Source: Octopus vulgaris
Lineage: Eukaryota
Reading direction: 5' to 3'
DNA length: 64,000 nucleotides
Assembly: GCA_951406725.2 (NCBI GenBank)
Contig: OX597819.1
Span: 21,328,001 to 21,392,000, forward strand
Below, in pieces: positions 12,568-64,000 of this stretch. A program made the translations under genes and the position numbers. Each line of letters starts with the position of its first letter. Position 1 is the first letter of the stretch. The notes under the pieces are model-generated. The model was not told the origin of the DNA. It searched no databases and saw only the letters and a program-made list of their open reading frames with translations.

Positions 12568-13343
12568 CAGATGCATTGCAGTATTGCATCATATGTATAT
12601 GTCTGTGTAGTTTTTATAGTAGTTAACTTCAAATATTAACTAATCGAAACTATTTAATCAAACAAGCTACTCTCGGTAGTTTTGGCAACAAAGTACCAAA
12701 TGCGTAACCAAGTTGAAAAGAATGAAATACTTTGTTCGTCAGAACGAAATATGAAAAGAATTGAAAACAAAGCTGGTGGTTTACCCCCATATTGAAGACT
12801 GCTTTGATTCCGTAGCATGTGTTAAAAATAAAATCAAAAAAATTACAACGGAAATAGTTTTATGTATTGCTAAGTAACTAATGGGTGTTTTACTCTTTTC
12901 TCAGACGGTGAAAATACAGAACAAAAGTTGATGACCACACGTAACACAGTAGCGAAAAATTAACAAAATAAAACTATATCAGCACACCATAATAGCAAAT
13001 ATTGTTCGTCGTTTTTCGAAGCAACAAACTAACCTCTTTCTCGTTTTCCAACCTGCTACAATTAATAGCCAAATGTCCTGTAATAATTATAGTTCGGATT
13101 GCGTATAACCTGAAAGAAAAAAGAAAATGGTTATGTCTCCTTTAAATCACACATTACAATTTTTTGCCAATTTTTTTTTTTCTTTTTTGAGGAAGATATA
13201 ATGAATGTAATCTTAGCATTGGTGCACTCACAAATTGGTCAGGATGATCGTAAGATGAGCTTCAGCAATAAGAAAAAGAAAACGATAACTAAACGGCAAC
13301 GCGACTAAATTCTTTGTTGAATGGTTCTGCAATGTTGTAAACC

Positions 13344-13752
13344 TATTTCTTTACTACCTACAAGGGGCTAAACACAGAGGGTACAAACAAGGACAGACAA
13401 ACGGATTAAGTCGATTATATCGACCCCAGCGCGTAACTGGTACTTATTTAATCGACCCCGAAAGGATGAAAGGCAAAGTCGACCTCGGCGGAATTTGAAC
13501 TCAGAACGTAGCGGCAGACGAAATACCTGTTTCTTTACTACCCACAAGGGGCTAAACACAGACAGGACAAACAGGCACAGACAAACGGATTAAGTCGATT
13601 ATATCGACCTCAGTGCGTAACTGGTACTTATTTAACCGACCCCGAAAGGATGAAAAGCAAAGTCGACCTCGGCAGAATTTGAACCCAGAACGTAACGGCA
13701 AGCGAAATACCGCTAAGCATTTCGCCTAACGTGCTAACGTTTCCGCCAGCTT
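13344..13752 (-). mobile_element. SINE family A head-to-tail dimer with 13-bp target-site duplication
   Basis: Two tandem copies of ..gttctgagttcaaattccgccgaggtcgactttgcctttcatcc..; aatgttgtaaacc at 13331-13343 and 13755-13767. Confidence 0.9.
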
Positions 13753-15988: not shown

Positions 15989-16245
15989 TTCGGCTGATAT
16001 ACCCTCCCGCCTTCATCAGGTGTCTTGGGGAAGTTTCGAACCTGAGTTCTCACTTTTAACATCGAAAAATACCTTAGGAATGAGAACCCAGCTTCGAAAT
16101 TTTCCAAAGACATCTGATGAAGGCTGGAGGGTATATCAGCCGAAACGTTGTGTCAACAACAAACAAGATGAGGACAAGTACCTATCAAATGTAAATAATG
16201 TAAATAATGTATCAAAATTGCTCATGTGTTAAATATAGAACTGAA
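15989..16245 (+). mobile_element. Penelope-like terminal element with an inverted partial duplication
   Basis: 15989-16052 is an imperfect reverse complement of 16081-16144; both arms carry the hammerhead core CTGATGA. Confidence 0.7.
16109..16154 (+). ncRNA. Minimal type-I hammerhead ribozyme
   Basis: GACAU-CUGAUGA-A-GGCUG(10-nt loop)CAGCC-GAAAC-GUU-GUGUC; stem I GACAU/GUGUC, stem III palindrome AACGUU. Confidence 0.75.
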
Positions 16246-25501: not shown

Positions 25502-25769
25502 CTACATATACATGCACGAAACACGTACATGGAATATGAACTATTTTTTCTAACAACGAAGGAGACAAATGGAAAACAAAGAACGACCCATCATCAGTTG
25601 TTGGCTGTTTTTCTTGACCCAGCTACAACGGAGAGAAAAAAAGAAACCTATATTTGCATATAAACTTAAGTATATACGCATATATATATCATTATATATA
25701 TATATATTATTTATATCATATATATATATATATATATAGTACGTTTAAATATTTGTTTCTAATATTTAC

Positions 25770-25800
25770 CTAAACTGGCAATATGACCATTCCGAAATAT

Positions 25801-25808
<8 letters not shown>
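25770..25808. mobile_element. Solo terminal repeat of the 38991-39291 element family
   Basis: ctaaactggcaatatgaccattccgaaatataacaata matches 39254-39291. Confidence 0.7.
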
Positions 25809-37277: not shown

Positions 37278-38866
37278 TAGGTGTGTCGACACCAACTTGC
37301 ATCTACCCTTGCTAATCTGTGGAGAAACTCACTGGATGCTGGCTATATTCCAAAAAACCTTCTGTCCCAGTCTGTTGTCCCAGTTTTTAAAAAGGGAAAC
37401 AAGTCCCTTGCAGTGAATTACCGTCCGATCTCACTCACCTCTCATATCATCAAGGTATTTGAGAGGGTGGTGAGATCTCGAATAACCCAATTTCTGGAAA
37501 GCAACAGACGGCTGATCTCCAACCAACGTGGGTTCCGTAATGGAAGGGACTGCCTAACGCAGCTCCTGCATCACTTTGAGGACATTTTGAGAGCTTTGGG
37601 AGAGGGCTCCAACACCGATGTCATCTACCTTGATTTCAGTAAGGCCTTCGACAGGGTCGATCACAAGATCCTATTGAAAAAACTATCCAACATTGGTGTC
37701 TCTGGAAAGTTACTGAAATGGATCAAGTGTTTCTTGACAGACAGATCTCAACATGTTGTAGTTGAAGGGGTAAAATCAAGCCCAGCCAAAGTCAGTAGTG
37801 GCGTTCCGCAAGGCACTGTGCTGGGCCCACTTCTTTTCATCATTTACATTAATGACATTAATGACATCATCAAGCACAGCAACATAAAAATCTTTGCAGA
37901 TGACTCCAAGCTACAGAAGGTCATAAATGAGGCGAGTGACCGGACATGCCTTCAGTCAGATCTACTGGCTGTTATCCAATGGGCAGAAAAAAACAATATG
38001 CTGCTGAACGAGGATAAATTTGAGCTAATCCACTTTGGAAAAGAGGATGCCCTGAAACTCCCATACTCCCTTCCTTCAGGTGAAACTCTCGCGGCGTCCA
38101 ACAATATCAGAGACCTGGGAGTAATTGTGGACAACAACATAAGCTGGGCCACTCATATAAACACCAAAGTTGACATGGCCCGCAGAATGTGTTCCTGGAT
38201 TCTCAGAACTTTCCAGTCGAGAGATATCCACACCATTATCCTTCTCTTCTCCACTTTTGCCCGACCCCACCTTGAATACTGTTGTCCACTGTGGTCTCCC
38301 CACACAATACAAGGTATCATAAAAGTTGAAGCACCTCAAAGGGCAATCACAAAAAAGATAGATGGCATGACAGGCCTCGACTATTGGGGTCGACTAGAAA
38401 AGCTAAAACTCTATTCTCTCCAACGTCGTCGTGAGCGCTACATCATCTGCATGATGTGGAAAATATTCCATCAGCATTGCCCAAATGATGTTGGCATCAC
38501 CTTTAAGGTACATCCAAGGCTTGAGCCCCGTGCCATCCGCCCAAAACAAAAATCGCACTCTCATCTCATAACAACAATACGGCACAATTATTTCACCTCA
38601 ATTGGCCCCGCTCTCTTTAACATTACACCAAAACACATTAAAACAGAAACTGACCCTATAGGGTTCAAGAAGTCTTTGGACAGATTCCTTCAAGAAATCC
38701 CGGATAAACCCCCTACACCCGGATATGTCTCTGTAAACAATAACTCTCTACTTGAGTGGGCCATAGTGCCCAAATTCTGACTTGAAAGACTTCACCAGGT
38801 GGTGCTATTAAGTTAGACATGGCCTGGGCCAATAATGGCCGAAACCTATCAAAGTATCAAAGTATA
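37278..38866 (+). mobile_element. 5'-truncated LINE including 3' UTR and (TATCAAAG)n tail
   Basis: Stop at 38780, then ggtggtgct..catggcctgggccaataatggccgaaacc tatcaaag tatcaaag; flanked by TA-rich microsatellite on both sides. Confidence 0.88.
37281..38780 (+). CDS. Reverse transcriptase domain and C-terminus of a CR1/L2-type LINE ORF2 (5'-truncated, no endonuclease)
   Basis: 499-aa open frame with [67 protein letters not shown]. Confidence 0.92.
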
Positions 38867-38957
38867 CTTATACATAGACATATATATATACCTATATATA
38901 CATACATACACATATATACATACACACACATATATACATACACATACATATATACAT

Positions 38958-38990
<33 letters not shown>

Positions 38991-38997
<7 letters not shown>

Positions 38998-39291
38998 ATA
39001 TTTCAGAATGGTCATTTTGCCAGTTTGGCCAATAAAAACACACGCACTATATATTTGGTGTTATTTTGCTTCAGTGTTATTTATTTTTTACATTAATGTT
39101 AATCTTATTTCGGCCAGAGATCTTTCGTCACACTCCTGTGACGGCATCAGTGGTCCTTTGTTTTCTTCTTTCTTACTTGTGTCTCTCCTTACTAACCGTC
39201 AGCCATTTTGTATTTCTATTGTATGTCTTCATTTGCGCATGTGTTTTTATTGGCTAAACTGGCAAAATGACCATTCCGAAATATAACAATA
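38991..39291. mobile_element. About 300-bp MITE-like element with about 52-bp terminal inverted repeats and an internal hammerhead
   Basis: tattgttatatttcagaatggtcattttgccagtttggccaataaaaacaca versus tgtgtttttattggctaaactggcaaaatgaccattccgaaatataacaata (2 mismatches); TA at both ends. Confidence 0.85.
39111..39156 (-). ncRNA. Near-intact minimal hammerhead (A9->C core variant)
   Basis: GGACCA-CUGAUGC-C-GUCAC(AGGAGU)GUGAC-GAAA-GAUC-UC-UGGCC; stem III palindrome AGAUCU. Confidence 0.6.
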
Positions 39292-39346
39292 TCTGTTTCA
39301 ACACACGACTTCACATAAAAAAATCTTGCACAACAAATATTTAAAC

Positions 39347-39388
<42 letters not shown>

Positions 39389-39514
39389 GCATATATATAT
39401 ATACACATGCTTACATATATATACACATGCATACATATATATACACATGCATACATATATATACATATATATATATACATTATATATATATATATATATA
39501 TGCACACGCACACA

Positions 39515-39683
39515 CTTTGATAGATTTCGGCCACTATAGACCCAGGCCAGGCCATGTCTAGCATAATAGCACCACCCGGCAAAGTCATTCAATTTGGGAA
39601 TCGGACAACATGGTCCACTCGTAGAGACTGTTTTTGTCTACGGTAAAGTTTGCGGGTGTAGGGGGTTTATCCGGCAATATTTG
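39515..39683 (-). mobile_element. 3'-end fragment of a sister subfamily of the 37278 LINE
   Basis: Reverse strand ccggataaaccccctacaccc..gagtggaccat..gggtggtgctatta..ctagacatggcc..ggccgaaatctatcaaag aligns with 38700-38854. Confidence 0.85.
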
Positions 39684-40104
39684 AAGCATCAGTTTGACAA
39701 TTGCTACCGATGAATGCGAGAGAGTTCTTCAGTAATGTTAACAGGACATCTTTAAAAAACATCTTCCTACCGAAGTTTACTAAGAACTTCCCAGTTCTAA
39801 AAACCAGACTGTAAAAGTATATTATTAAAAAAATTAAATTCATTAGAACTACCAGTGAAGCTATTCTTTTTTCTTCTTCAAATACACCCAACTGTACCAA
39901 GGGTTTCACATATTTTCTAATATATATATAGGGAAGTATAATTGTGAATTAAATGTGGCTATCCCTTAGGGATGGATGCTACTGCAGCTTGTAGCCCCAG
40001 GAAGACACATCCTCCAGCTAGCTATTGACACACTTTCTGTACCCTATCAATATTTGCATTGGGAAGCACTTCACATCGACAACCGGCGATGGTCACACGC
40101 TGCA

Positions 40105-47105: not shown

Positions 47106-47522
47106 ATATTTCTTTATTGCTCACAGGGGGCAAACAAGGACAGACAAACGGATTAAGTTGGTTATATCGACCCCAATCCGAAACTGGTACTTATTGAATC
47201 GACCCCGAAAAGATGAAAGGCAAAGTCGACTCCGGCTGTATTTGAACTCAGAACGTAACGGCTGACGATAGAAATAGAAATACCTACTTCCATTTATTTA
47301 CTACCCACCAGGGCCTAAACACAGAGAGGACAAACAAGGACAGACAAACGGATTAAGTCGATTATATGGATCCCTGTGCGTAACTGGTACTTAATTTATC
47401 GACCCCGAAAGGATGAAAGGCAAAGTCGACCTCGGCGGAATTTGAACTCAGAACGTAACGGCAGACGAAATACGGCTACGCATTTCGCCCGGCGTGCTAA
47501 CGTTTCTGCCAGCTCACCGCCT
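47106..47522 (-). mobile_element. SINE family A head-to-tail dimer with 14-bp target-site duplication
   Basis: acggactgaaatat at 47092-47105 and 47525-47538 flanks two tandem monomers. Confidence 0.9.
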
Positions 47523-52020: not shown

Positions 52021-52530
52021 TAATTTCAAATTAATAATAAAAGGGTAAAATTAATCAATTTATTTACCCCCTTATTATTAATTTGAAATTGTAATTTACT
52101 TCATGATAGAACACTGTAGTTTTCTCCGGTACTGCTCGTAACATACACGTGGGTACAGGGCTGAATAAATAGTGTATTCACATTCCACTGTGTAAATTTT
52201 GGAAGTATTGGTTGGATATCTGTTGTACGATGTCGCTCGATCGTGTGCATATTTAACACTAGCACTATCAAATTTTATAATTGAAAATGCTACACTGAAG
52301 AGAGAAGGAAGTAATTAAAACACTTTAATCTCGAAACGCGTATGTGGCTAATCAGAGTCGTTGTGGATTCATTGTTTTTTTTTTACTTTGCTACGTAAAA
52401 AAGTGTGTTATTGTCGTGGAGAATCTTACAGTAGTAGAAAAGGAATTTTTAACTCCTATTTCTAAATTCGGTATGTGGTGAAGCAATTAGCTGATCCCTA
52501 ATTATAATTGTTTATAATTATAGAATATTT
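52021..52530 (+). mobile_element. Penelope-like mini-element with a 5' terminal hairpin and a hammerhead
   Basis: 52022-52090 folds back (aatttcaaattaataataa..gggtaaa / tttaccc..ttattattaatttgaaatt); hammerhead at 52289; microsatellite flanks. Confidence 0.6.
52289..52348 (+). ncRNA. Minimal type-I hammerhead ribozyme (intact)
   Basis: GCUACA-CUGAAGA-GAGA(23-nt loop)UCUC-GAAAC-GC-GUA-UGUGGC; stem III palindrome ACGCGU. Confidence 0.82.
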
Positions 52531-62453: not shown

Positions 62454-64000
62454 TGTACGTATGTATGTGTGTATGTATGCATACATGTGTGTATGTATGT
62501 ACATATTCATGTCCGCACATACGCCTGTGTATGCATGTATGTATGTATGTATGTATGTATGTATGTATGTATGTATGTATGTATGTATATATGTATGTGT
62601 GTGTATAAGCACGCACATACACTCTATAAAACATAAAGTTATAAACCTGTAGCGTTGGATGGATGTAGAGTGACCACTCATCACAACGCTATCAAATTTC
62701 AACTCCCTACGGCCGAGGCTAGAAAGTGAATTTATGACGCTTGCTCACAAGAACTATACCCTAAAATCTATTATCAGATTTTTATCTCTATATCACAGAA
62801 CTAATGTTTTACTATTGTTCGTATGTATGTATGTATGTGCGTATGTATGTATGTGCGTATGTATGTATGTATGTATGTATGTATGTATGTATGTATGTAT
62901 GTATGTATGTATGTATGTACATACGTACGCATGTGCGTATGTATGTATACGCGCCCGTATGCATGTGCCCATGTATGTGTGTGTGTACATGTACGTGCGT
63001 ATGTACGTGTGTATGCCCATACGTAGGTATGTATGTATGTTTGTATTCATGTGCTACGTATGTATGTGAGTGTCTAGGAGAATGGGCAGATGTGTCCGTG
63101 AGAGTGTGTACATGTGTATGTGTATGTGAACGTATGTCCGTGTACTGGCATGTGTCCGTCCAAGTTGTGTACATGACTGTTACTTAGCTGAAGGTTGTAT
63201 ACATATTTACATATATGTTTGTATGTATGTAATATATGTAAATATGTATACAACCTTCAGCTAAGTAACAGTCATGTACACAACTTGGACGGACACATGC
63301 CAGTACACGGACATACGTTCACATACACATACACATGTACACACTCTCACGGACACATCTGCCCATTCTCCTAGACACTCACATACATACGTAGCACATG
63401 AATACAAACATACATACATACCTACGTATGGGCATACACACGTACATACGCACGTACATGTACACACACACATACATGGGCACATGCATACGGGCGCGTA
63501 TACATACATACGCACATGCGTACGTATGTACATACATACATACATACATACATACATACATACATACATACATACATACATACATACATACATACATACA
63601 CATACATACATACGCACATACATACATACATACGAACAATAGTAAAACATTAGTTCTGTGATATAGAGATAAAAATCTGATAATAGATTTTAGGGTATAG
63701 TTCTTGTGAGCAAGCGTCATAAATTCACTTTCTAGCCTCGGCCGTAGGGAGTTGAAATTTGATAGCGTTGTGATGAGTGGTCACTCTACATCCATCCAAC
63801 GCTACAGGTTTATAACTTTATGTTTTATAGAGTGTATGTGCGTGCTTATACACACACATACATATATACATACATACATACATACATACATACATACATA
63901 CATACATACATACATACATGCATACACAGGCGTATGTGCGGACATGAATATGTACATACATACACACATGTATGCATACATACACACATACATACGTACA
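62454..64000. repeat. Large near-perfect inverted duplication, 15-nt spacer at 63217-63231, right arm runs off the window
   Basis: 63232-64000 is the reverse complement of 62454-63216, including non-repetitive blocks; visible differences are confined to the (ATGT)n tract. Confidence 0.95.

What the first reader, a model, noticed from the sequence alone, without database searches (positions are those of the whole stretch)
38991..39291. MITE-like element whose only cargo is a hammerhead
Seen: about 52-bp terminal inverted repeats with TA at both ends enclose a hammerhead fold (39111-39156, minus; core CUGAUGC). A solo copy of the same terminus lies at 25770-25808. TIRs with TA ends suggest a DNA-transposon MITE, while the ribozyme suggests an RNA intermediate. 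Inference: either a Penelope pseudo-LTR with an inverted tail that mimics a MITE, or a hybrid class of non-autonomous element.
Basis: partly seen in the sequence, partly recalled or inferred. Interest (0 to 1): 0.75.

Follow-up and report, generated by a model that had tools for sequence, protein, structure and literature searches.

The report
Penelope stump with eroding ribozyme core
This MITE look-alike in an octopus genome is a one-off pair of back-to-back end fragments of a known jumping gene (a Penelope-like retrotransposon), which is ordinary; the one point of interest is that the family's youngest copies carry an altered and likely weakened hammerhead ribozyme core.

Summary
The inverted repeats and the hammerhead-like motif are real, but this is not a MITE. 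The junction is unique in 2.8 Gb. Among 40 other-and-own inverted insertions, arms run from 20 to 2734 nt, and 38 of 40 have the tail on one arm only. [quoted passage not shown] The 'TIR' holds its likely start codon. The 'solo' terminus is a second, smaller insertion of the same kind. This layout is published (PMC8557442, PMC3846280), and the scan has noted it before on other DNA. One thing is less ordinary: CUGAUGC is the majority core (3530 versus 739 CUGAUGA matches). It is derived: the subfamilies run A9/C17, C9/C17, C9/U17, and the youngest holds the intact gene. The family therefore probably kept spreading with a weakened ribozyme. Cleavage was not tested.

The parts
38991..39241 (-). 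Long arm: last 251 nt of the Penelope-like element (pseudo-LTR), without tail; the element's 3' end points left
   Evidence: 96% identical to the 3' end of the full unit in L062; other genomic copies match query 1-251 and then run on into 3' UTR, endonuclease and RT
39112..39156 (-). Minimal type I hammerhead motif with C in place of A9, one extra nucleotide before stem II, 2-bp stem III, C17
   Evidence: Sequence; same motif in 3288 exact 31-nt matches; no Rfam hit; cleavage untested
39237..39241 (.). Inversion junction: 5-nt overlap between the two arms (microhomology, inferred)
   Evidence: BLAST arms overlap by 5 nt; the 27-mer across it occurs once in G000
39237..39291 (+). Short arm: last 55 nt of the pseudo-LTR, holding the likely start codon of the element's gene (ATG 39267-39269)
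   Evidence: tblastn of the L062 protein hits 39258-39320 with residues 1-21; 53 of 56 identical to the long arm
39292..39349 (+). Tail (58 nt here, 57 nt in most copies): N-terminal codons of the gene, present on one arm only
   Evidence: 98% identical to bases 1-56 of the unit; 1930 of 5012 termini carry it
38864..38990 (.). TA-rich microsatellite left of the insertion (target tract)
   Evidence: Sequence
39350..39505 (.). TA-rich microsatellite right of the insertion (target tract)
   Evidence: Sequence
25737..25808 (.). Second, minimal two-armed insertion of the same family in (TA)n: 21 nt of inverted tail end (25737-25757), 12 nt of filler, 39-nt untailed arm (25770-25808)

Best explanation
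The feature is two truncated 3' ends of a Penelope-like retrotransposon joined head to head in a (TA)n tract, most likely made in one insertion event by the element's own enzyme rather than copied as a unit. Shown: both arms are 3' ends of a 4.6-kb element with RT and GIY-YIG nuclease; arm lengths differ at every site; one arm carries a tail; the junction is unique. Inferred from the in vitro work on the anole element (PMC11167929): the nuclease nicks both strands of AT-rich DNA, reverse transcription starts at two sites about 57 nt apart (giving one tailed and one untailed end), both cDNAs stop early, and they are joined at a few shared bases. The hammerhead is simply the motif that lies in the pseudo-LTR. 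In this lineage its core changed from A9 to C9 and later from C17 to U17 while the family kept spreading (order shown, loss of activity inferred).
For: Junction 27-mer: 1 match in 2.8 Gb. Of the 40 best-scored places of the 301-nt query, 38 match only about 1-251 (to 264) and only the window and L021 have a second arm in place, with a different junction. First 100 termini on C1: 21 head-to-head neighbours, 0 tail-to-tail, 2 tandem, spans 105-4228 nt. 40 distinct inverted insertions: arms 20-2734 nt, tail on exactly one arm in 38. L062: partial tandem plus inverted truncated copy, 1312-codon open frame, RVT_1 then GIY-YIG (E 0.0014 and 0.0026, both under the curated cut-offs), best fold matches are telomerase RTs (model pLDDT 92). 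29 of 36 untailed ends are followed by (TA)3 or more. Subfamily order: distance to group majority 11.2%, 3.6%, 3.2%, 0.7% for old A9, A9/C17, C9/C17, C9/U17, with nearly additive distances between groups; arm-to-arm identity pooled by hand: 489/521, 1383/1409, 4249/4261.
Against: No empty target site was seen, so a target-site duplication could be neither shown nor excluded. Two unrelated copies (L060, L084) share almost the same junction (arms 51 and 226), which a copied short unit would also give; they differ at subfamily markers and by one base at the junction, so independent origin is likelier but not proven. BLAST overlaps of 1-3 nt arise by chance, so microhomology is only suggestive for 21 of the 29 overlapping junctions. 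A9/C17 and C9/C17 do not differ significantly in distance to their majority (p = 0.10). All samples were picked by exact motif matches, mostly on C1-C3, which favours young copies. Pfam gave no hit on the whole 1312-aa frame.
Confidence: 0.95

Rival explanations
1. A Tc1/mariner-type MITE with TA target duplication that captured a hammerhead.
For: 52-bp inverted repeats, TA at both quoted ends, 301-nt size.
Against: Unique junction; variable arms and one-sided tail; the repeat is the coding start of an RT gene; TA comes with the (TA)n target.
Confidence: 0.01
2. A hybrid non-autonomous class: short fold-back units built from Penelope ends that are re-copied as units by the Penelope enzyme.
For: Short two-armed insertions are common (about a third of the 40 have a short arm under 100 nt); L060 and L084 share a near-identical junction; 12 of 80 arms start 224-232 nt from the end.
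Against: The window's junction has no second copy. The recurrent pair carries different subfamily markers. Look-alike triplet L148-150 and pair L040/L041 share their flanks, so they are host duplications.
Confidence: 0.03
3. The inversion arose after insertion, by a local template switch during DNA repair or by an assembly error.
For: Short overlap at the junction; TA-rich flanks are hard to assemble.
Against: The short arm carries a tail that the long arm lacks, so it cannot be a copy of the long arm; the arms differ at 3 of 56 positions; the same one-tail rule holds in 38 of 40 insertions.
Confidence: 0.01

Closest known systems
Complex insertions of endonuclease-positive Penelope-like elements (Craig et al. 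2021, PMC8557442, passages read; Arkhipova et al. 2013, PMC3846280, passages read)
   Same: 5'-truncated copies, partial tandems, an inverted truncated copy head to head, a tail on one end, pseudo-LTR holding the first codons of the ORF, (TA)n targets, microhomology junctions, asparagine-rich insert in the ORF.
   Different: Tail is 57 nt against the 30-40 nt described; both arms here are cut down to the pseudo-LTR.
Neptune/Nematis clades of Penelope-like elements (definitions as given in PMC8557442)
   Same: [quoted passage not shown]
   Different: No reference tree was built, so Neptune versus Nematis is not settled.
Minimal type I hammerheads of metazoan PLEs (Cervera and De la Pena 2014, PMC4209133, parts 1-2 of 4 read)
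   Same: Short stem I, long stem II, extra nucleotide between 9 and 10.1, G10.1-C11.1 pair, tiny stem III; dual motifs on opposite strands 100-700 bp apart are described there.
   Different: C at position 9 in most copies and U17 in the youngest; loop III is AA (not palindromic) in the family, and palindromic only in this copy and a few others.
PAc, Poseidon element of the green anole (Frangieh et al. 2024, PMC11167929, passages and second half of the main text read)
   Same: Tail equals the stretch between two RT start sites; both target strands are cut and extended; ribozyme mutants still insert in vitro.
   Different: Different clade; there the ribozyme overlaps the start codon and its core is conserved.
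MITEs of the Tc1/mariner type (recalled, no call)
   Same: Short, non-coding look, inverted ends, TA flanks.
   Different: No fixed length, no symmetric ends, no transposase partner, junction not amplified.

Membership tests
Endonuclease-positive Penelope-like element | Single ORF with telomerase-related RT | tested here: met
   L062 frame of 1312 codons; RVT_1 E 0.0014; top Foldseek hits are TERTs, E 8.5e-9 and 5.5e-8
Endonuclease-positive Penelope-like element | C-terminal GIY-YIG nuclease with CCHH motif and conserved R, H, E, N | tested here: met
   GIY-YIG E 0.0026 at 648-693 of 753; Y650, C654, G668, R677, H681, H697, H702, E728, N740 invariant in 92 sequences
Endonuclease-positive Penelope-like element | Pseudo-LTRs from partial tandems, inverted truncated copy, one-sided tail | tested here: met
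   L062 structure; 38 of 40 insertions with one tail
Endonuclease-positive Penelope-like element | Hammerhead motif in the pseudo-LTR | tested here: met
   Motif 127-167 nt from the 3' end in all subfamilies; canonical CUGAUGA in the older ones
Neptune/Nematis clade | CX2-5CxxC linker between RT and nuclease | tested here: met
   CTDNYCTVC upstream of the nuclease; C632 invariant
Neptune clade | RT phylogeny with reference elements | not tested
   No named reference PLE proteins were at hand; hits are almost all unnamed
MITE | Many copies of uniform length with the same interior | tested here: not met
   Junction unique; spans 105-4228 nt
MITE | Symmetric terminal inverted repeats shared with a transposase element | tested here: not met
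   One arm has a 58-nt tail; the partner encodes RT and GIY-YIG
MITE | Target-site duplication | tested here: inconclusive
   Both flanks are (TA)n; no empty site seen
Hammerhead ribozyme | Core CUGANGA ... GAAA ... UH | tested here: not met
   A9 is C in this copy and in 3530 matches against 739 with A; the other core positions match
Hammerhead ribozyme | Self-cleavage | not testable with these tools
   No assay; only contigs, no raw RNA reads, were listed
Non-LTR retrozyme | Head-to-tail tandem monomers each with a hammerhead | tested here: not met
   This copy has one motif and inverted arms; 0 short tandem neighbours among the first 100 termini (2 tandems at 3.5 and 4.6 kb)

The most novel reading that the evidence does not exclude
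An octopus Penelope lineage lost its working ribozyme and thrived: A9C was fixed, then C17U, and the youngest subfamily (arms 99.7% identical, intact gene) spread to thousands of copies with this core. That would be natural in vivo evidence that hammerhead cleavage is dispensable for Penelope retrotransposition, and the three dated cores form a ready series to assay. If the C9 core cuts well instead, it is a natural core variant that my searches did not find in print.
Probability: 0.45. Interest if true: 0.5.

Novelty: new member of a known kind. Interest (0 to 1): 0.25.

Why it matters
The finding as posed is ordinary: it shows how Penelope stumps can be mistaken for MITEs in repeat annotation. 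The side result bears on an open question. The role of the hammerhead in Penelope elements is described as unclear (PMC8557442), and ribozyme mutants still insert in vitro (PMC11167929). A lineage that fixed two core changes and kept amplifying offers a natural test of whether cleavage is needed in an animal genome.

Tried and rejected
Rfam: no hammerhead among the 150 listed of 428 matches for the whole window and none on 39060-39220. Pfam on the whole 1312-aa frame: 0 families; hits appeared only with the C-terminal 753 aa. PDB by sequence: nothing useful for the single protein, two bacterial RTs with the profile. Expression: no RNA holder listed, contigs only. Laying four contig sets on 38991-39349 showed many different joints and C9 as the major letter in three of four runs, but no piece spans the stretch, so it says nothing about an empty site. 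DNA folding near the arm-start hot spot gave no stable hairpin (about -1 kcal/mol). Arms ending at the predicted cut site (127 nt from the end): 0 of 80 between 120 and 135 nt, so cleavage products do not explain the truncation points in this sample. Recurrent structures L148-150 and L040/L041 were rejected as MITE amplification because flanks are shared. Lunse et al. (RNA Biol, PMC5785218), which by its title covers small hammerhead variants in Penelope-like elements, is not held; I saw only its citation, and it may already report C9 cores. Searches for A9C or CUGAUGC with hammerhead or Penelope terms listed no paper with such a core; figures and supplements of PMC4209133 and PMC3088659, where core variants are drawn, were not seen.

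Full report
Observation. The inverted repeats are there: 50 of 52 bases match, 52 of 55 when extended, and 25770-25807 matches the end at 37 of 38. The minus strand holds a hammerhead-like motif at 39156-39112: stem I GG(A)CCA/UGGCC, CUGAUG, C at position 9, one extra base, 5-bp stem II, GAAA, a 2-bp stem III, U16.1 and C17. Rfam does not score it. The flanks are TA-rich microsatellites.

Genomic copies. The window lies in G000, 2.8 Gb in 227 contigs. The closest named protein to the element's gene is a hypothetical protein of Octopus vulgaris at 99%, so this is an octopus genome. Of the 40 scored places of the 301-nt query, 38 match only bases 1 to about 251-264; only the window and L021 have a second arm in place, and L021 has another junction. 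The other copies run on into a 3' UTR, a GIY-YIG region and an RT. The 27-mer across the window's junction occurs once in the genome. About half of the first 30 loci carry a further 57 nt beyond the quoted end; the window has this tail on its right arm, 39292-39349. Genome-wide, 1930 of 5012 exact terminus matches are tailed.

Autonomous partner. L062 (G000:C1:59392300-59402200) holds a full 4598-nt unit, a truncated copy in tandem and an inverted truncated copy with a tail. Its open frame has 1312 codons with an asparagine-rich stretch. The first methionine lies inside the 'TIR', and the tail continues the frame ([28 protein letters not shown]); that it is the true start is inferred, in line with PMC3846280. 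The C-terminal 753 residues hit RVT_1 and then GIY-YIG, both below the curated cut-offs. Catalytic and zinc-binding residues are invariant in 92 aligned sequences. The model (pLDDT 92) is closest to telomerase RTs. A CX4CxxC linker places it with Neptune or Nematis by the definitions in PMC8557442; I built no reference tree.

MITE test. Among the first 100 termini on C1, neighbours within 10 kb were head to head 21 times, tail to tail never, tandem twice, with spans of 105 to 4228 nt; 19 of the 21 show one tail by exact match, and the other two resolve to one outer tail on inspection. From loci L001-L136 I kept insertions with both outer ends in view and a junction gap of -35 to +15, and removed duplicates: 40 remained. 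Arms are 20 to 2734 nt, 38 have one tail, one (L062) shows two because of its internal tandem, one old copy shows none. Arms overlap by 1-9 nt in 29, by 34 in one, and have 1-13 nt of filler in 10. Of 36 untailed ends, 29 are followed by (TA)3 or more. The 'solo' end at 25770 has 21 nt of inverted tail end beside it and is the same kind of insertion. Against my reading: L060 and L084 have nearly the same junction, but each carries its own subfamily markers.

Mechanism. Shown here: the anatomy above. Taken from PMC11167929: the anole enzyme cuts AT-rich DNA, extends both strands, starts reverse transcription at two internal sites whose spacing equals the tail, and inserts even when the ribozyme is mutated. 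Inferred for this site: two short cDNAs, one from each start site, joined at five shared bases. PMC3846280 instead reads palindromic junctions as self-priming on an antisense template; some junctions here are near-symmetric fold-backs (224/224, 229/229), so that route is not excluded for them.

The core. With one relaxed pattern, 3530 places have CUGAUGC and 739 CUGAUGA; with a stricter 31-nt pattern, 208 of 3288 have A. Exact patterns favour young copies, so these ratios overstate C9. Among the first 100 matches of a joint pattern, 51 are C9/U17, 44 C9/C17, 3 A9/C17 and 2 U9/C17 (counted by hand). The groups form a ladder. Mean distance to the group majority over 213 nt is 11.2% (old A9 with another loop, n = 19), 3.6% (A9/C17, 27), 3.2% (C9/C17, 21) and 0.7% (C9/U17, 39); distances between majorities are 1.9, 3.3 and 3.3%, and 8.1% end to end (loci L001-L031 left out as picked for closeness to the window; both arms of an insertion count separately). 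A9/C17 versus C9/C17 is not significant by this measure (p = 0.10), C9/C17 versus C9/U17 is (p = 7e-8). Arm-to-arm identity gives the same order: 93.9%, 98.2%, 99.7% (5, 11 and 19 insertions, pooled by hand). The tree puts most A9 copies on one branch. The intact gene is C9/U17. The window's copy is C9/C17, 2.8% from that majority, with private changes at the extra base and in loop III. C9 is also the major letter in three of four contig sets from differently labelled organisms. PMC3088659 (section 8 and passages) says most core changes cause a drastic loss of activity, although some natural variants still cut; the text I read names no change at position 9. That A9 pairs with the catalytic G12 and that U17 is tolerated at a lower rate is recalled, not from a call. 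So a weakened ribozyme is likely, not shown.

Known or new. The insertion layout is published, opposite-strand motif pairs are published, recently active Penelope families are reported for O. vulgaris (PMC13282606, passages), and earlier notes of this scan reached the same reading on other DNA. My searches found no paper and no scan note on a C9 core, but the most relevant paper could not be read. Verdict: a new member of a known kind, interest 0.25, carried by the core-change series.

Noticed in passing
Loci L001-L136, element positions 224-232 nt from the 3' end: 12 of 80 arms start in this 9-nt stretch, against 6 in the 54 nt on one side and 5 in the 58 nt on the other; old A9 copies start there too. 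It lies about 60 nt upstream of the hammerhead and may be the transcription start, as earlier scan notes suggest.
   Followed up: partly
window 15989-16160: An imperfect palindrome with two opposite-strand hammerhead motifs that have the canonical CUGAUGA core (16114-16145 on plus); probably a head-to-head stump of another Penelope family.
   Followed up: no
window 37281-38780 (+) and 39515-39690: A 499-codon RT frame of a LINE-type element ends just left of the finding; a related 3' end lies inverted on the right (71% identical). The Penelope stump sits in the TA-rich tract between them.
   Followed up: partly
window 62454-64000: A 1.5-kb palindrome with arms 98-100% complementary; real fold-back or assembly artefact not tested.
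   Followed up: no
L062 1213-5148 (-): The intact gene has a long asparagine-rich low-complexity stretch in its N-terminal third, like the inserts described in Adineta Penelopes (PMC3846280).
   Followed up: no
window 13341-13751 and 47122-47514: An abundant repeat with a tandem unit of about 185 nt, with further fragments across the window.
   Followed up: no
G000:C14:7979092-7979801: Three A9 hammerhead motifs on one strand 340 nt apart: a short tandem that could be a retrozyme-like array or a local duplication.
   Followed up: no
P0094: An annotated octopus protein isoform (dynein regulatory complex subunit 6-like) contains a piece 98% identical to 20% of the element's protein region searched: exonised insertion or gene-model error.
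   Followed up: no
window 52295-52340: A loose hammerhead-like string found by the motif scan; weak stem II, probably chance.
   Followed up: no
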